A stretch of DNA of 38,045 nt from a virus. Its lineage: Duplodnaviria > Heunggongvirae > Uroviricota > Caudoviricetes. Below the pieces are notes generated by a model. The model was not told the origin of the DNA and did no database searches. It worked only from the letters and a program-made list of their open reading frames with translations. Shown here one piece after another: positions 10,267-14,760 of this stretch (the stretch's first letter is position 1; every line of letters begins with the position of its first letter). Position numbers and translations under genes: made by a program. Where the stretch lies: IMG/VR virus record IMGVR_UViG_2778261204_000006, positions 1 to 38,045 of that record; one strand, written 5' to 3'.

Positions 10267-10297
10267 CCGGAAAGCATTGTGCTTTCCGGTTTTGTTT
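10267..10297 (+). terminator. rho-independent terminator downstream of the repressor-like gene
   Basis: CCGGAAAGC / GCTTTCCGG 9-bp stem, 5-nt loop, followed by TTTTGTTT. Confidence 0.5.
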
Positions 10298-11061
10298 CAG
10301 AAGTTGCAGATTACCAGTTCACGGCGCGGCGTGGGTTTCCCCGCCAGACTGTAGTTGATATTCACCGTCTGTATGTTCAGTTCAGTGAACACCCGACGCA
10401 TCTGCGGAATGTCGTTCACCGAGATAATCATCTTTCCTCTGATGCACCGGGCCAGTTCTGCGAGTAGTGTGTAGTTCTCTTCAGGAAAATCCACACCATA
10501 GCCTTCCGTCCCCAGATAGGGCGGATCACAGTAGAACAACGTGTGCGGACGGTCATAACGCTTAATGCACTGGTGCCAGTCCATGTGCTCTATCACCGTT
10601 CTGGAAAGCCGCAGGTGTGCCGCTGACAGTTCTTCTTCAATACGTAGCAGGTTGAAGCGTGGCGGAGATGTGGTGGATGTGCCGAAGCTGTGCTCTGCCA
10701 CCTTGCCACCAAATGCCTGCTTCTGGAGGTAGTAGAACCGTGCCGCACGCTGGATATCCGTCAGTGTTTCTTCCGGGGTGATCTGCAGCCATTTGTAGAT
10801 CTGCCGGCTAACCAGCGCCCATTTGAACTGGCGGATAAATTCTTCCAGGTGATGTTTTACCACCCGGTACAGATTCACCAGTTCACCATTGATATCGTTA
10901 ATGACTTCGAGCTTGCCGGGAGTCTTGAGAAAATAGAGCGCAGCTGCGCCGCAGAACGGCTCCACATAACATTCATGCGCAGGAAACAGCGGCAGGATGT
11001 GTTTTGCCAGGCGGCGTTTGCCACCAATCCATGGAACGATGGGTAATGTCTGCGTTTTCAT
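10297..11061 (-). CDS. Dam-like N6-adenine DNA methyltransferase
   Basis: 254 aa; DPPY catalytic motif (LFYCDPPYLG) and SAM-binding FxGxG-like motif (EPFCGAAA). Confidence 0.85.
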   Translation of the reverse strand: MKTQTLPIVPWIGGKRRLAKHILPLFPAHECYVEPFCGAAALYFLKTPGKLEVINDINGELVNLYRVVKHHLEEFIRQFKWALVSRQIYKWLQITPEETLTDIQRAARFYYLQKQAFGGKVAEHSFGTSTTSPPRFNLLRIEEELSAAHLRLSRTVIEHMDWHQCIKRYDRPHTLFYCDPPYLGTEGYGVDFPEENYTLLAELARCIRGKMIISVNDIPQMRRVFTELNIQTVNINYSLAGKPTPRRELVICNF

Positions 11062-11466: not shown

Positions 11467-11869
11467 GATGCACTCCTTAAATGATGATTTTTATGTACTC
11501 ACCGGCAAAATATTCTGCCGATTACTGAACACGCATCCGGCACCTCAGGTTTTGATTTATTCTGGTTTTTTCGATATCCCGGACCAGGTTGATCACGACC
11601 AGAAAAAGTGCCGGTATTTTATTGATACGCTGATATGGCTTCGGGATAACAGCTATATTCGTTACTCTCAGTTGCTGGCTGTGGGAGCGGCTGATGTCGT
11701 CCTCACGGAAAAAACGCTCTGTCTGCTCAATGCCATGCCGACCTTTCTGCAGCCCCGGCCCGTACCATTTAAAGAGTCGCTTCTGGATGCAGTAAAAACC
11801 GGTGAAAATGCAGTCATCGCTGAATGCGTATCCCGGATTATGCGTTACGTGTTTAATGAACGTAAGTGA
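11465..11869 (+). CDS. hypothetical protein (134 aa)
   Basis: Exactly fills the gap between minus-strand genes; 3' end overlaps the P-loop gene by 25 nt; looks AT-richer than flanks by eye. Confidence 0.45.
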   Translation: MMHSLNDDFYVLTGKIFCRLLNTHPAPQVLIYSGFFDIPDQVDHDQKKCRYFIDTLIWLRDNSYIRYSQLLAVGAADVVLTEKTLCLLNAMPTFLQPRPVPFKESLLDAVKTGENAVIAECVSRIMRYVFNERK

Positions 11870-12588
11870 GGTTTATCCGCTGTCTGCATAATCCCGATAG
11901 CCAGTGCGAGGGGAAGCAATTCCGGGGAAACTCTTTCAAACAGCGATTCCCATTCTCCTCTCGCCATCACTCTGTCCAGCCCTCCCTCCAGCTGCATTTC
12001 AGCAATCTTCCTGATTTCCCGGAACAACGCCGCTTTGATCTCTTCGTGCTCAGCTTTATTTTCCGGTGTCAGAATGTATTCGTCGAAGAACCGGGGAGGC
12101 TGGTTAACGGGGATTGTGTTCACCGGGATGTGTTCCTGCTTCCCGTACTTCGGGGCCGAAAAACATTCTGTTGGCTGACCGGTGAGTTTACGTAACTCCT
12201 TCATGAGCAGCTCCTGATCGTAAACTGTCATCAGTGCCGCAATGGTGGCATGCAGTGCATCGGGCAGTATCCAGGGTTGCCGGCCCGTGGGGCATATAAC
12301 ATCCAGCAGCTCATTCGTCCGACAGATACGCTCCTCGCCGTATGACAACAGGCCCTGTCCCGTGTATTCCTCCAGCCTGATCACTGTGCCACCCCGTGGC
12401 TTCTGCCAGGTCGTCAGATCATCGCCATTCATACGGCGCTCATTCTCCACGTCAGCAGCATCGACAATGACGCTGTTTCCGAGTTCCTGTTTCACCACTT
12501 CCTCTATCCGCGCCAGTACGTAACTTTTACCGCTGCCCACAGGACCGGACACGGTGACAGTGATGACCGGATTCAGTGTGTGCGTCAT
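11845..12588 (-). CDS. P-loop NTPase/kinase-like protein of unknown function
   Basis: 247 aa; N-terminal Walker A VSGPVGSGKSY; GAGGAG RBS; divergent from the lysis cassette. Confidence 0.55.
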   Translation of the reverse strand: MTHTLNPVITVTVSGPVGSGKSYVLARIEEVVKQELGNSVIVDAADVENERRMNGDDLTTWQKPRGGTVIRLEEYTGQGLLSYGEERICRTNELLDVICPTGRQPWILPDALHATIAALMTVYDQELLMKELRKLTGQPTECFSAPKYGKQEHIPVNTIPVNQPPRFFDEYILTPENKAEHEEIKAALFREIRKIAEMQLEGGLDRVMARGEWESLFERVSPELLPLALAIGIMQTADKPHLRSLNT

Positions 12589-12718: not shown

Positions 12719-13069
12719 ATGAAAAACCTGAAAAAATTCATTCCCCCTGTTAAAAAACCTCGCCTCAGCGGCTGGCTGCTGACCTCAGTGCTGCTGCTGG
12801 GCACCATCGCTCTGGTATCGCCACAGCAGTTGCCTGTTGTGATCTACAAGCTGGCACTCATCACGCTGGCAGCAGTGCTGGGTTACTGGCTTGACCGTTC
12901 GCTCTTCCCCAAAGCCCGTCCCGGTCAGTACCTGAAACATGACAACAGGCTGATGGCTGAAGGGCGTTTCCCTGTGCAGACCGGCCTGCACCTGGTGTTT
13001 TCTGCTGCGTTAATCCGCCGCGCACTGATTGTTGCAGCAGTCTGTCTGGCTGTGGCAACAGGGCTGTGA
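12719..13069 (+). CDS. putative holin / lysis membrane protein
   Basis: 116 aa from ATG 12719 (AAGGAGA RBS); 2-3 hydrophobic helices; immediately upstream of and overlapping the endolysin. Confidence 0.5.
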   Translation: MKNLKKFIPPVKKPRLSGWLLTSVLLLGTIALVSPQQLPVVIYKLALITLAAVLGYWLDRSLFPKARPGQYLKHDNRLMAEGRFPVQTGLHLVFSAALIRRALIVAAVCLAVATGL

Positions 13070-13071
13070 CC

Positions 13072-13797
13072 ATGAACTGGCCTCAAATCACCCTCATTAT
13101 TCTGTTCGCCTTTGCTCTGGGCGTAACCGCCATCAGACACGGCGAACCACGTAACGATAAATACAGCTTCTGGTGGCAGCTTGCTGGCAACCTGGTGATT
13201 GCCTGGCTGCTCTGGTGTGGCGGCTTTTTCAGTCAGGCATCCGCAGCACAGCCCCCGCGGGCTGCCCTGCAGTATCGCGATGATGTGATCCGTAATGCCC
13301 GCCTTGAATGGGGACTGTCTGCGCCGGTGGCTGATTTCGCTGCGCAACTGCATCAGGAAAGCGGCTGGCGACCTGATGCGATCTCGCCGGTGGGGGCTCA
13401 GGGACTGGCGCAGTTTATGCCTGCCACTGCCGACTGGATAAGCCAGTTGATGCCGGCGCTGAGCAGTCGAGAGCCGTTTAATCCGGCATGGGCTATCCGG
13501 GCGCTGGTCAGTTATGACCGCTGGCTGTGGCAGCGCATCAGCGCCGCCAGTGACTGCGAGCGTATGGCCATGACGCTGTCGGGCTATAACGGGGGTCTTG
13601 GCTGGGTACAGCGGGACAGGCAACTTGCATCACAGAAAGGGCTGGACCGTACCCGCTGGTTCGGACATGTCGCCACGGTGAATGCCGGACGCAATGCTGC
13701 CAGCTGGCGGGAGAACCGTCATTATCCCCGGCGCATCCTGTTCACGCTTGCCCCGCGTTATCTCTCATGGGGAGGGGCAAGCTGTGTGGGTACGTAA
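13072..13797 (+). CDS. lytic transglycosylase (SLT-domain) endolysin with N-terminal hydrophobic segment
   Basis: Motif ESGWRPDAISPVGAQGLAQFMP typical of SLT; N-terminus MNWPQITLIILFAFALGVTAI; alternative GTG start at 13066. Confidence 0.8.
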   Translation: MNWPQITLIILFAFALGVTAIRHGEPRNDKYSFWWQLAGNLVIAWLLWCGGFFSQASAAQPPRAALQYRDDVIRNARLEWGLSAPVADFAAQLHQESGWRPDAISPVGAQGLAQFMPATADWISQLMPALSSREPFNPAWAIRALVSYDRWLWQRISAASDCERMAMTLSGYNGGLGWVQRDRQLASQKGLDRTRWFGHVATVNAGRNAASWRENRHYPRRILFTLAPRYLSWGGASCVGT

Positions 13798-14437
13798 GTT
13801 ACGGTCGCTGCCGTGGCGGGTCATTATGCTGGCCATTCTCCTGAACGCCTTCCTGCTGGCGATCTGGTGGCTGGGATACAGCACAGGCCACGACCGGGCC
13901 TCCGCTGACGGTCAGGCGGCGCTCAGCCGCCTGCAGGCGGATTTTGACGGATACCGGGCAGAACAGGCCCGGAGTGAGGTGGCGGCGCTGCGCGCATGGT
14001 CTGAGCGTTATCAGGAGCAGGTAGCCGCCGGGCAACGGGCTGAAGCTGGTTATCTTGAGCAGATTGCTCAACTGGAGGACCAGAACAAACAACTACAGGG
14101 GCAAATTAACGATGTCACACAGCGCTGGATTGATGAAAAAGGTAAGAGCCATCCCATTGAGTGCGTGTTTACTCGCGGTTTCGTGCGCCAGTACAACGCC
14201 GCACTCGGATACGACAACGCATCCGTCGACACCGGTCATTCAGACTCAGTTGCCGCCGCTGGCACCCGCTCTGGCACAGCGACCGGGCAACCTGAAACCG
14301 CTGATACCCGGTTACGCGATTCGGGTGTCTCCCAGCGTGACGTTCTCGCCAACCTCATCGACAACGCAGGGCAATGTCGTCGCTGGCGAAACCAGATAAA
14401 CGCGCTGCTGGATGAACGGGAAGGATTACAGAAATGA
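13784..14437 (+). CDS. i-spanin (Rz-like)
   Basis: GTG start with GGGGAGGGG RBS; N-terminal TM then coiled-coil periplasmic domain; follows the endolysin. Confidence 0.65.
   Translation: MWVRKLRSLPWRVIMLAILLNAFLLAIWWLGYSTGHDRASADGQAALSRLQADFDGYRAEQARSEVAALRAWSERYQEQVAAGQRAEAGYLEQIAQLEDQNKQLQGQINDVTQRWIDEKGKSHPIECVFTRGFVRQYNAALGYDNASVDTGHSDSVAAAGTRSGTATGQPETADTRLRDSGVSQRDVLANLIDNAGQCRRWRNQINALLDEREGLQK
14133..14399 (+). CDS. o-spanin (Rz1-like lipoprotein) embedded in +1 frame within the i-spanin gene
   Basis: MKKVRAIPLSACLLAVSC lipoprotein signal with lipobox Cys, proline-rich mature region; wholly inside 13784..14437. Confidence 0.6.
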   Translation: MKKVRAIPLSACLLAVSCASTTPHSDTTTHPSTPVIQTQLPPLAPALAQRPGNLKPLIPGYAIRVSPSVTFSPTSSTTQGNVVAGETR

Positions 14438-14760
14438 CACTGCAGGTTGAATTCTGGACGGTGGTTGGCTTTCTGCTCACCTTCATGGGCTTTGTCGGCG
14501 GTATGGCCAAATGGCTGTTCAGTAAAGCGGAGGAACGCCAGGCTGCACGCTTCGCCTCCCTTGAACAGGCCCTGCAACAGTCCGCCTCCAGTTGGGGCGA
14601 GCTGGAAAAAGAATTGATGCGATTTAAAGCGGATTTACCGCTGAATTATGTCCGTCGCGAGGATTATATCCGTGGCCAGACGGTCATTGAGGCCAAACTG
14701 GACGCGCTCTACAACAAACTGGAAGTGGTACAGCAGTACCGCAATACCGGAGGTCAATAA
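14434..14760 (+). CDS. hypothetical membrane protein (late operon)
   Basis: 108 aa; ATGA overlap with spanin stop; N-terminal TM. Confidence 0.5.
   Translation: MTLQVEFWTVVGFLLTFMGFVGGMAKWLFSKAEERQAARFASLEQALQQSASSWGELEKELMRFKADLPLNYVRREDYIRGQTVIEAKLDALYNKLEVVQQYRNTGGQ

What the first reader, a model, noticed from the sequence alone, without database searches (positions are those of the whole stretch)
13066..13797. SLT-domain endolysin with N-terminal hydrophobic segment (possible SAR or signal-anchored endolysin)
The lytic transglycosylase begins with MNWPQITLIILFAFALGVTAI, a membrane-spanning-like segment, suggesting holin-independent export with membrane tethering. That would change how the upstream holin-like protein should be interpreted (possibly a pinholin).
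Basis: partly seen in the sequence, partly recalled or inferred. Interest (0 to 1): 0.35.

Follow-up and report, generated by a model that had tools for sequence, protein, structure and literature searches.

The report
Exported phage endolysin with two-helix leader

Summary
The ORF is real. It runs from ATG 13072 to 13797 and sits in a BcepMu-type lysis cassette of holin, endolysin and Rz/Rz1 spanins. It encodes a family-1 lytic transglycosylase (Pfam SLT, invariant E96-S97).

There are two hydrophobic helices, H1 (residues 5-21) and H2 (37-53), joined by a basic loop. H2 is followed by SQASA|AQPP, a -3/-1 signal-peptidase I motif.

- In 190 unique homologue junctions, -1 is Ala in 179 and -2 is free.
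- Relatives carry a plain signal peptide (BcepMu gp22, KS10 gp09) or a lipobox ahead of the same junction.
- Both helices have about half the Gly/Ala/Ser/Thr content of the proven Mu SAR domain.
- Two invariant cysteines suggest a periplasmic disulfide.

So holin-independent export is well supported. SAR-type retention is not, and cleavage at A58|A59 is the best reading, though it is untested.

Residues 1-54 are homologous to a widespread stand-alone family of about 54-aa two-TMD phage proteins (phrog_5479). In 48 Pseudomonas phages that protein is a separate gene between holin and endolysin, so the leader is a gene fusion.

Verdict: a new variant of a known kind (exported endolysin), of moderate interest.

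The parts
12719..13069 (+). Holin (116 aa) with a basic N-terminus and two to three hydrophobic segments. Its stop codon lies 2 nt before the endolysin ATG.
   Evidence: Pfam Holin_2-3 PF13272, E=1e-40. phrog_1528 holin, 6e-54. RefSeq annotates it 'putative holin'. Hydropathy.
13072..13797 (+). Endolysin precursor, 241 aa plus stop: a two-helix leader followed by an SLT lytic transglycosylase domain.
   Evidence: Pfam SLT PF01464, 53.9 bits against a cut-off of 21.3, residues 93-189. phrog_669 endolysin, 4e-68. PDB Slt70, 1e-6. PGAP uses the same start.
13084..13134 (+). H1, residues 5-21 (QITLIILFAFALGVTAI), a strongly hydrophobic helix. The four-residue N-tail MNWP carries no charge.
   Evidence: KD 2.31 and Hessa sum -0.5. 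AlphaFold helix 3-22. Part of the phrog_5479 match to residues 1-54, E=2.3e-13.
13135..13179 (+). Basic loop, residues 22-36 (RHGEPRNDKYSFWWQ), predicted cytoplasmic. It serves as the n-region of the internal signal.
   Evidence: Three K/R here against none in the N-tail. Family means are loop 3.4 and N-tail 0.0. The HG.P+ motif is conserved.
13180..13230 (+). H2, residues 37-53 (LAGNLVIAWLLWCGGFF), which serves as the h-region. It carries the conserved LLW[C/W]GGFF motif and C49 (13216-13218).
   Evidence: KD 1.71, GAST 0.29. G50, G51, F52 and F53 are invariant. AlphaFold helix 33-49.
13231..13245 (+). c-region S54-Q55-A56-S57-A58. Signal peptidase I is predicted to cut after A58 (13243-13245), leaving AQPPRAAL as the mature N-terminus.
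   Evidence: Fixed-column logo over 190 unique junctions: -1 is Ala in 179; -3 is Ala in 142 and Val in 17; -2 has entropy 3.1 bits. pLDDT is below 50 at residues 56-60. The KS10 SignalP site is homologous.
13246..13794 (+). Predicted mature enzyme, residues 59-241 (183 aa). Catalytic E96 is at 13357-13359. The invariant cysteines are C162 (13555-13557) and C238 (13783-13785).
   Evidence: E96, S97, C162 and C238 are invariant in alignments A1 and A2. The top Foldseek hits are MltF and MltE, but weak (E about 0.2) and from a low-confidence model.
13784..14437 (+). i-spanin (Rz-like), 217 aa from GTG 13784. PGAP instead starts at ATG 13826.
   Evidence: phrog_1403 Rz-like spanin, 4.7e-89, over the full length. 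N-terminal TMD. PGAP coordinates.
14112..14399 (+). o-spanin (Rz1-like) embedded in the +1 frame of the i-spanin. The start is ATG 14112 or ATG 14133. It has an LLAVSC lipobox and a proline-rich mature part.
   Evidence: ORF and translation. BcepMu gp24 is annotated as an embedded Rz1 at the same position. No PHROG or Pfam hit.
14434..14760 (+). 108-aa membrane protein at the position of Mu gp25: an N-terminal TMD followed by a cytoplasmic coiled-coil-like domain. Whether it takes part in lysis is unknown.
   Evidence: phrog_462, the same family as BcepMu gp25 and B3 ORF28. No Pfam DUF2730 hit. hhalign against Mu gp25 gives probability 0.2%.

Best explanation
The gene encodes the endolysin of a BcepMu-like transposable prophage, a family-1 lytic transglycosylase made as a 241-aa precursor.

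Shown:
- The first 58 residues are a two-helix hairpin: H1, a basic loop, then H2.
- This hairpin is homologous to a widespread stand-alone two-TMD phage protein of about 54 aa (phrog_5479).
- H2 is followed by an A-x-A motif that is conserved across the whole endolysin family.

Inferred:
- The hairpin inserts with the N-terminus out, the loop in the cytoplasm and the C-terminus out.
- Loop, H2 and SQASA act as an internal Sec signal, so the catalytic domain reaches the periplasm without the holin.
- Signal peptidase I cuts at A58|A59 and frees a soluble 183-aa enzyme (AQPP...).
- That enzyme is stabilised by a C162-C238 disulfide.
- The 58-aa hairpin stays in the inner membrane.
- The Holin_2-3 holin then acts as the timer or trigger, by membrane depolarisation or by stopping wall synthesis, rather than as the conduit.
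- The Rz/Rz1 spanins finish lysis.
For: Cassette and enzyme:
- Holin, SLT endolysin, Rz and embedded Rz1 lie in order.
- The E96-S97 motif is invariant.

Two helices and topology:
- Hydropathy shows two segments, and AlphaFold predicts helices 3-22 and 33-49.
- K+R is 0 in the N-tail and 3.4 in the loop on average.

Cleavage motif:
- 168 of 169 unique junctions have a -3/-1 site at a near-fixed distance from W80.
- In fixed columns, -1 is Ala in 179 of 190; -3 is Ala in 142 and Val in 17; -2 is the most variable column.
- An A/V-x-A motif occurs in 91% of junction windows and in 29% of control windows.

Leader swapping at that junction:
- BcepMu gp22: MRVLIAFVVALLGAAAPVAA|QVP.
- KS10 gp09: ...SSSAHA|QVP.
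- Brenneria and Pectobacterium prophages: ...SDA|AQPP.
- Lipobox forms: L082 (IVSGC) and P0117 (LLSGC).
- The KS10 authors report a SignalP cut at 44/45, which is the homologous site.

Other points:
- Composition is not SAR-like.
- C162 and C238 are invariant.
- The linker at residues 56-60 has pLDDT below 50.

Leader as a fused gene:
- phrog_5479 matches residues 1-54 at 2.3e-13.
- BLASTP against the stand-alone 52-aa TAB03 protein aligns end to end, E=3e-4.
- 48 Pseudomonas phages have it as a separate ORF between holin and endolysin.
- The stand-alone protein ends ...GGFFG*, at the point where the fused form continues GGFF-SQASA|.

Background knowledge: the host's own lytic transglycosylases (Slt70, MltA-F) are all exported by cleavable or lipoprotein Sec signals.
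Against: - No experiment exists for any family member.
- No SignalP, DeepTMHMM or LipoP run was possible here. The cleavage call rests on the -3/-1 rule and on conservation.
- The predicted signal is internal, with 21 residues including H1 ahead of it. That is unusual, and H1 could hinder or slow cleavage.
- The sample is dominated by related Enterobacterales sequences, so the counts are not independent events.
- The protein is Ala-rich, and A-x-A occurs by chance in 29% of control windows.
- Chamblee et al. 2022 (PMC9239132) class the homologous Pseudomonas transglycosylases as SAR endolysins.
- A constitutively secreted soluble endolysin leaves the control of lysis timing unexplained.
- The structural model is of low confidence (mean pLDDT 63.8), and the disulfide is inferred from conservation only.
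Confidence: 0.55

Rival explanations
1. SAR-type or release-type endolysin. The leader is not cleaved, the enzyme accumulates tethered and inactive on the energised inner membrane, and it is released when the holin (perhaps a pinholin) collapses the proton-motive force.
For: - The hydrophobic N-terminus precedes a periplasm-acting enzyme, and a holin gene lies next to it.
- H2 contains Gly-Gly and is the weaker of the two helices, with a Hessa sum of +1.2.
- Published bioinformatics calls the Pseudomonas homologues SAR endolysins (PMC9239132).
- A membrane protein occupies the position of the Mu releasin gp25.
- This reading would explain timing control.
Against: - Gly/Ala/Ser/Thr content is 0.29-0.35, against 0.59 for the proven Mu gp22 SAR domain.
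- There is no basic N-terminus.
- There are two helices, so release would need the charged loop to cross the membrane.
- The A-x-A motif is conserved and the leader is interchangeable with classical signal peptides.
- The Fc22 endolysin (AYD80390), listed in Table S1 of that paper as a member of the transglycosylase family it classes as SAR, begins MKRLLTLGLLGLLSACQPAFA|TD. That reads as an ordinary signal or lipoprotein signal.
- The gp25-position protein shows no homology to DUF2730.
Confidence: 0.15
2. Permanently membrane-anchored transglycosylase. The two-helix hairpin is a stable anchor that is neither cleaved nor released, and the enzyme works tethered or is freed by another protease or by holin lesions.
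For: - H1 is a strong TMD with a Hessa sum of -0.5.
- The stand-alone homologues are stable two-TMD proteins by prediction (TMHMM note in the phage Mica annotation).
- An internal signal may be a poor substrate for LepB.
Against: - Only about 10 residues (AQPPRAALQY) link H2 to the folded domain. By inference that is too short to reach the wall.
- Relatives with plain cleavable signals show that the domain works untethered.
- The constraint at -1 and -3 would be left unexplained.
Confidence: 0.1
3. Cytoplasmic, holin-dependent endolysin. H1 inserts N-in, H2 returns across the membrane, and the catalytic domain stays in the cytoplasm attached to the membrane until canonical holin holes form.
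For: A holin gene lies immediately upstream and is translationally coupled. Two TMDs would in principle allow a C-in topology.
Against: - The positive-inside rule puts the loop in the cytoplasm: K+R is 3.4 in the loop and 0 in the N-tail.
- The invariant Cys pair suggests an oxidising compartment.
- Homologues carry single classical signal peptides or lipoboxes, which can only export the domain.
Confidence: 0.05

Closest known systems
BcepMu gp22 and KS10 gp09 (Burkholderia Mu-like phage SLT endolysins)
   Same: - The catalytic domain is homologous, at 63% and 52% identity.
- The cassette is the same: Holin_2-3 holin, endolysin 2 nt after the holin stop codon, then Rz with embedded Rz1.
- The A-x-A junction lies about 10 residues before the Y-R motif.
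   Different: They have a single classical N-terminal signal peptide. For KS10, SignalP was reported to cut at 44/45 (PMC2628397). The window protein instead has a 58-aa two-helix leader.
Pseudomonas phage B3 ORF25, and the JBD25/Fc22/TAB03-type endolysin together with its upstream 52-aa gene
   Same: - B3 has the same fused layout of hairpin, AKA|D junction and SLT domain.
- The JBD25/Fc22/TAB03 type has the same hairpin as a separate gene (phrog_5479) between holin and endolysin.
   Different: - In the split form the endolysin has its own signal, MKRLLTLGLLGLLSACQPAFA|TD, which is also lipobox-like.
- These phages are siphoviruses.
- The split-type phage TAB03 carries a DUF2730 protein downstream, and Fc22 is listed with one in Table S1 of PMC9239132. 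B3 ORF28 is phrog_462 like the window protein and has no DUF2730 hit.
SAR endolysins (P1 Lyz, phage 21 R, Mu gp22)
   Same: Export is Sec-dependent and holin-independent, through an N-terminal hydrophobic sequence. The holin or releasin acts as a trigger rather than a conduit.
   Different: SAR domains are single, preceded by basic residues, rich in Gly/Ala/Ser/Thr, and not cleaved. Here there are two ordinary hydrophobic helices, no basic N-terminus and a conserved cleavage motif.
Lys44 of Oenococcus phage fOg44 (signal-peptide endolysin)
   Same: An endolysin made with a cleavable Sec signal. The mature enzyme accumulates outside the membrane and is held in check until the proton-motive force collapses (PMC6116005).
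   Different: Lys44 comes from a Gram-positive host, belongs to a different enzyme class and has a simple N-terminal signal. Cleavage was shown experimentally for Lys44 and has not been shown here.
Host lytic transglycosylases Slt70, MltE and MltF
   Same: The same SLT fold and E-S catalytic motif. Sequence search finds Slt70 at 1e-6, and the top Foldseek hits are MltF and MltE. All are exported by Sec signals (established knowledge).
   Different: The host enzymes are housekeeping enzymes with extra domains or lipid anchors. This protein is a minimal phage enzyme inside a lysis cassette.
T4 antiholin RI
   Same: A precedent for a phage lysis protein first described as SAR-like that proved to have a cleavable signal peptide (PMC8385771, title seen).
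   Different: RI is an antiholin, not an enzyme, and is unrelated in sequence.

Membership tests
Family-1 lytic transglycosylase (Pfam SLT, PF01464) | Match to the SLT profile above the curated cut-off | tested here: met
   53.9 bits against a cut-off of 21.3, residues 93-189. PDB Slt70 at 1e-6.
Family-1 lytic transglycosylase (Pfam SLT, PF01464) | Catalytic Glu in the E-S motif | tested here: met
   E96-S97 (HQES) is invariant in 13 and in 38 aligned sequences.
Family-1 lytic transglycosylase (Pfam SLT, PF01464) | Lytic transglycosylase activity (1,6-anhydro-MurNAc products) | not testable with these tools
   A biochemical assay is needed.
Phage endolysin of a holin-endolysin-spanin cassette | Gene lies between a holin gene and the spanin genes in the late region | tested here: met
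   Holin 12719-13069, Rz 13784-14437 and embedded Rz1, followed by terminase genes. The order matches BcepMu.
SAR (signal-anchor-release) endolysin | A single N-terminal TMD preceded by 2-3 basic residues (N-in, C-out) | tested here: not met
   There are two hydrophobic helices, and the N-tail MNWP has no K or R. The criterion is quoted from PMC9239132.
SAR (signal-anchor-release) endolysin | TMD made mainly of weakly hydrophobic residues (Gly/Ala/Ser/Thr) | tested here: not met
   The GAST fraction is 0.35 for H1 and 0.29 for H2, against 0.59 for Mu gp22. LIVFMW is 0.59 against 0.35.
SAR (signal-anchor-release) endolysin | Not processed by signal peptidase | tested here: inconclusive
   A conserved A-x-A motif argues for processing. 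No predictor or experiment was available.
SAR (signal-anchor-release) endolysin | Membrane-tethered and inactive, then released on depolarisation | not testable with these tools
   Fractionation with and without CCCP or DNP is needed.
Sec signal peptide cleaved by signal peptidase I | Basic n-region, hydrophobic h-region, polar c-region with small residues at -3 and -1, and no Pro from -3 to +1 | tested here: met
   Residues 22-58: n-region RHGEPRNDKYSFWWQ (3 K/R), h-region LAGNLVIAWLLWCGGFF, c-region SQASA|A. Conservation.
Sec signal peptide cleaved by signal peptidase I | Signal located at the extreme N-terminus | tested here: not met
   21 residues, including the TMD H1, precede the n-region. 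It would therefore be an internal or bipartite signal.
Sec signal peptide cleaved by signal peptidase I | Demonstrated cleavage | not testable with these tools
   The only related evidence is a SignalP prediction for KS10 gp09 at the homologous site (PMC2628397).
phrog_5479 small two-TMD phage protein | Full-length match to the 53-position profile, with the conserved PQI, HG.P+ and LLWxGGFF motifs | tested here: met
   Residues 1-54 match profile positions 1-53 at E=2.3e-13. BLASTP against the TAB03 52-aa protein gives 3e-4. Motifs.
phrog_5479 small two-TMD phage protein | Stand-alone protein of about 52-60 aa | tested here: not met
   Here it is fused in frame to the SLT domain, as in 46 of the 87 loci compared.
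Mu gp25 releasin (DUF2730) partner | [quoted passage not shown] | tested here: not met
   The product of 14434-14760 has the same position and the same layout (TMD plus cytoplasmic domain). It gives no Pfam DUF2730 hit even at E up to 10, and hhalign gives probability 0.2%.

The most novel reading that the evidence does not exclude
The precursor is a natural two-in-one polyprotein. Signal peptidase would separate a secreted soluble endolysin from a 58-aa two-TMD membrane protein that has its own function (lysis timing, antiholin-like, or another membrane role). That membrane protein would be equivalent to the widespread stand-alone phrog_5479 proteins. By extension, truly secreted and cleaved endolysins, rather than SAR endolysins, would be the norm in BcepMu/B3/D3112-type phages of Gram-negative hosts. 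This would leave open how a free periplasmic endolysin is held in check until the holin fires.
Probability: 0.25. Interest if true: 0.6.

Novelty: new variant of a known kind. Interest (0 to 1): 0.4.

Why it matters
- Exported endolysins of Gram-negative phages are usually assumed to be SAR type. This family looks like signal-peptidase-processed enzymes, and the literature classes part of it as SAR. If they are cleaved, lysis timing must be explained by something other than membrane tethering.
- The gene is present in 636 of 5,426 complete E. coli genomes, so the question applies to a common prophage.
- The fusion gives the first functional handle on phrog_5479, a widespread small phage membrane protein of unknown function. 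It can serve as, or be replaced by, an endolysin export signal.
- For endolysin engineering, the mature enzyme probably starts at A59.

Tried and rejected
- **GTG 13066 start.** Rejected in favour of ATG 13072. The GTG overlaps the holin stop codon, the preceding residue is not conserved among relatives, and PGAP uses the ATG.
- **A start downstream of H1.** Rejected. There is no in-frame ATG before M116, the only in-frame GTG (V42) lies inside H2, and the region is under coding constraint.
- **Releasin homology of the 14434-14760 product.** There is no Pfam DUF2730 hit, the pairwise BLASTP is not significant, and hhalign gives probability 0.2%.
- **Structure.** The AlphaFold model from a 38-sequence alignment has low confidence (pLDDT 63.8). 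Foldseek against PDB gave only weak hits to lytic transglycosylases (E about 0.2). I used these only as consistency checks, and Cys-Cys proximity could not be read out.
- **Cysteine switch as in P1 Lyz, using C49 in H2.** Not pursued. The position is Trp in most stand-alone members and Ser in several fused ones.
- **phrog_5479 as a dedicated lysis-cassette gene.** Only partly borne out. Some copies sit in lysis cassettes (L006, L088), while others sit in early or small-gene regions.
- **Literature.** The Summer et al. 2004 BcepMu paper is not held. No paper was found that describes a two-TMD leader on an endolysin.
- **First junction script.** My first version mis-anchored 43 sequences. It was redone with a W80 anchor.
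Full report
**1. What is at the coordinates**

The window carries a + strand run of genes:
- a holin at 12719-13069 (Pfam Holin_2-3, E=1e-40; phrog_1528);
- the ORF in question;
- an Rz-like i-spanin at 13784-14437 (phrog_1403, 4.7e-89);
- an embedded +1-frame ORF with a lipobox (LLAVSC) and a proline-rich tail, typical of an Rz1 o-spanin;
- a 108-aa membrane protein at 14434-14760 (phrog_462);
- Mu gp26-, gp27- and terminase-like genes.

The closest phage records are Escherichia phage PhiKM (genus Bcepmuvirus, 90% identity) and Klebsiella phage KP12 (86%). BcepMu itself has the same gene order.

The ORF product hits Pfam SLT at 53.9 bits (cut-off 21.3; residues 93-189) and phrog_669 'endolysin' (4e-68). 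It matches E. coli Slt70 in the PDB at 1e-6. The E-S catalytic motif (E96-S97) is invariant. The gene is an SLT-type endolysin.

The same gene at 80% or more coverage is present in 634 of 5,426 complete E. coli genomes, where it is annotated only as 'transglycosylase SLT domain-containing protein'.

**2. Start codon**

The ATG lies 2 nt after the holin stop codon. BcepMu, PhiKM and KP12 show the same spacing, and PGAP uses this ATG in a 99.9% identical E. coli copy.

There is no in-frame ATG before M116. In 46 related loci the N-terminal region has no stop or frameshift. Its loop and second helix show about as many synonymous as non-synonymous differences (84:78 and 119:107). H1 changes faster (74:166) but stays hydrophobic. 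The hydrophobic N-terminus is therefore translated.

**3. The N-terminus has two helices and a cleavage motif**

Hydropathy analysis finds:
- H1, residues 5-21, QITLIILFAFALGVTAI: KD 2.31, Hessa sum -0.5;
- a basic loop, RHGEPRNDKYSFWWQ;
- H2, residues 37-53, LAGNLVIAWLLWCGGFF: KD 1.71, Hessa sum +1.2;
- then S-Q-A-S-A|A-Q-P-P.

AlphaFold gives helices 3-22 and 33-49 and a confidence dip (pLDDT below 50) at residues 56-60. The model as a whole is of low confidence, with mean pLDDT 63.8.

The N-tail has no K or R, while the loop has three. Across 31 unique fused leaders the mean K+R is 0.0 in the N-tail and 3.4 in the loop. The positive-inside rule therefore gives N-out, loop-in, C-out. Read alone, residues 22-58 form a textbook Sec signal: a basic n-region, a 17-residue h-region ending in Gly-Gly, and a five-residue polar c-region with Ala at -3 and -1.

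**4. Family comparison**

I compared 120 database homologues, 80 IMG/VR loci and annotated phages. They show several different N-termini in front of one conserved junction.

*Same two-helix leader.* Most Enterobacterales copies have it, as does Pseudomonas phage B3 ORF25. A few copies (P0098, P0115) have a two-helix leader of unrelated sequence.

*Single classical signal peptide.*
- BcepMu gp22: MRVLIAFVVALLGAAAPVAA|QVP.
- KS10 gp09: ...SSSAHA|QVP.
- Brenneria and Pectobacterium prophages: ...LLLLTLLLTGASGSDA|AQPP.
- Many IMG/VR loci.

*Lipobox.* L082 (IVSGC) and P0117 (LLSGC).

*Collapsed leader.* Some copies look like H1 and H2 merged into one short signal (L046, L065, L067 and L069: MNW[CR]QII..VLLWC[GS]G...LA|[DN]E).

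I aligned 190 unique sequences on the invariant W80 without choosing a site. The -1 column is Ala in 179 of 190 (entropy 0.47 bits). The -3 column is Ala in 142, Val in 17 and Ser in 9. The -2 column is the most variable in the region, at 3.1 bits (N, R, H, C, A, D, S, Q...). This is the signature expected of a signal peptidase I site.

An A/V-x-A motif is found in 91% of junction windows and in 29% of equal-sized windows in the Ala-rich mature domain. The KS10 authors reported a SignalP cleavage between residues 44 and 45, which is exactly AHA|Q, the homologous site (PMC2628397).

C162 and C238 are invariant in all aligned members. That fits a structural disulfide formed in the periplasm.

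**5. SAR or not**

The criteria quoted by Chamblee et al. [quoted passage not shown] SAR domains are also not removed by signal peptidase (PMC6116005). The window protein compares as follows:
- It has no basic N-terminus.
- It has two helices.
- The Gly/Ala/Ser/Thr fraction is 0.35 for H1 and 0.29 for H2, against 0.59 for the experimentally proven Mu gp22 SAR domain.
- It has a conserved cleavage motif.
- Release of an uncleaved hairpin would require the charged loop to cross the bilayer.

[quoted passage not shown] One of the proteins listed in its Table S1, Fc22 AYD80390, begins MKRLLTLGLLGLLSACQPAFA|TDRIP. This reads as an ordinary signal peptide, with LSAC also fitting a lipobox.

I therefore rate SAR behaviour as possible but disfavoured (0.15). 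T4 RI is a precedent for a 'SAR' assignment later revised to a cleavable signal (PMC8385771).

**6. The leader is a fused gene**

Residues 1-54 match the whole 53-position profile of phrog_5479 ('unknown function') at 2.3e-13.

In 48 Pseudomonas phages, including JBD25, JBD67, Fc02, Fc22, PM105 and TAB03, a 52-aa ORF lies between the holin and the endolysin. Its sequence is MGAPQIIWIVLAAVVLVTSYACDGLTNVISFKQRVFDVIAMTALVWWGGFFG*. The endolysin then carries its own signal. The window leader aligns end to end with this ORF (BLASTP 3e-4).

The stand-alone protein stops right after GGFF. That is where the fused forms continue with the c-region and the A-x-A motif.

Among the 87 loci compared, 46 have the leader fused, 1 has it separate and about 40 lack it.

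A profile search with the leader found 143 proteins. Of the 120 listed, 99 are stand-alone proteins of 50-62 aa with the conserved motifs M-G-x-P-Q-I, H-G-x-P-[KR] and L-L-W-[WC]-G-G-F-F.

Their contexts vary:
- a lysis cassette with a GH24 lysozyme and an Rz spanin (L088);
- early or small-gene regions in Xanthomonas FoX phages, Burkholderia phage Mica (annotated with TMHMM '2 transmembrane domains') and others.

The hairpin is thus an independent, widespread small phage membrane protein of unknown function. In this lineage it has been fused to the endolysin and has replaced the endolysin's signal peptide.

**7. Most likely mechanism**

*Shown:* the cassette, the enzyme family, the two helices, the conserved A-x-A motif, the interchangeable leaders, the invariant Cys pair and the homology of the leader to phrog_5479.

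*Inferred:*
- The hairpin inserts N-out and C-out.
- The catalytic domain is translocated by Sec.
- LepB cuts at A58|A59, giving a soluble 183-aa periplasmic enzyme with a disulfide and leaving a 58-aa hairpin in the membrane.

The holin would then be a trigger rather than a conduit. One Holin_2-3 member, AP1 HolAP, has been interpreted as a pinholin working with an exported endolysin (PMC8879335), but nothing here tests that.

How a free periplasmic transglycosylase would be tolerated until triggering is open. Two possibilities rest on general knowledge. One is dependence of activity on the proton-motive force, as for the secreted endolysin Lys44 (PMC6116005). The other is that SLT-type enzymes, like the host's own exported transglycosylases, are harmless while wall synthesis is running. 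Slow cleavage caused by H1 is a third possibility.

The 14434-14760 product occupies the position of the Mu releasin gp25 and has its layout, but shows no detectable homology to it.

**8. Verdict**

- Observation: partly confirmed. It is real, but there are two segments plus a cleavage motif.
- Interpretation: partly supported. Export independent of the holin is supported; SAR or anchor retention probably is not.
- Novelty: a new variant of a known kind, an exported endolysin whose leader is a fused two-TMD protein acting as a bipartite or internal signal.
- Nothing was tested experimentally and no dedicated signal or topology predictor was available, so confidence in the composite model is 0.55.
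- Interest: 0.4.

Noticed in passing
L001 1973-2713 (PhiKM); also L027, L028 and L030-L033: A variant leader. After MNWPQITWIV, H1 and the loop are replaced by an amphipathic Arg-rich stretch (CMSLKLAFEAFRVFIRTERLSVRAG), followed by a longer H2 (TFLVHMAWVFFVAMLLWCGGFF). This looks like one signal peptide with a very long n-region.
   Followed up: partly
L046, L065, L067, L069 (IMG/VR loci): Short leaders such as MNWRQIIRIVLLWCGGMVSPALA|NEPP keep the start of H1 and the end of H2. They appear to be deletion derivatives in which the two helices have collapsed into a single signal peptide.
   Followed up: no
L096 2501-2671 (Xanthomonas phage FoX5 gp66): A 56-aa stand-alone phrog_5479-type protein is annotated 'lytic murein transglycosylase' although it has no enzyme domain. 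This is probably annotation transferred from the fused endolysins.
   Followed up: partly
L088 3001-3165; L090, L092, L094, L097, L098: The stand-alone two-TMD protein occurs in unrelated phages and in varied contexts: a lysis cassette with a GH24 lysozyme and Rz (L088), early or small-gene regions, and a 132-kb record named Clostridioides phage LIBA2945. Its function is unknown.
   Followed up: partly
window 13784-14437 and 14112-14399: The i-spanin start is ambiguous. GTG 13784 gives 217 aa, a basic N-terminus and a full-length phrog_1403 match. PGAP uses ATG 13826. The embedded o-spanin (Rz1) is not annotated in the RefSeq copy and has no PHROG or Pfam hit.
   Followed up: partly
window 14434-14760: [quoted passage not shown] Loci L062, L081, L083 and L084, and Pseudomonas TAB03, have true DUF2730 proteins at this position.
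   Followed up: yes
L003 1762-2556 (phage B3 ORF25): The RefSeq start of the B3 endolysin lies 21 codons upstream of MGIPQ and overlaps the holin by 60 nt. By comparison with the family the real start is probably the MGIPQ methionine.
   Followed up: no
window 13555-13557 and 13783-13785: C162 and C238 are invariant across all aligned family members, including those from Burkholderia and Pseudomonas phages, which suggests a conserved disulfide. C49 in H2 is common in Enterobacterales only.
   Followed up: partly
window 10297-11061 (-) and 11845-12588 (-): Upstream on the opposite strand lie a DNA adenine methylase-like ORF (annotated as such in PhiKM and KP12) and a 247-aa protein with a P-loop-like N-terminus (phrog_3787; weak AAA_30 hit).
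   Followed up: no
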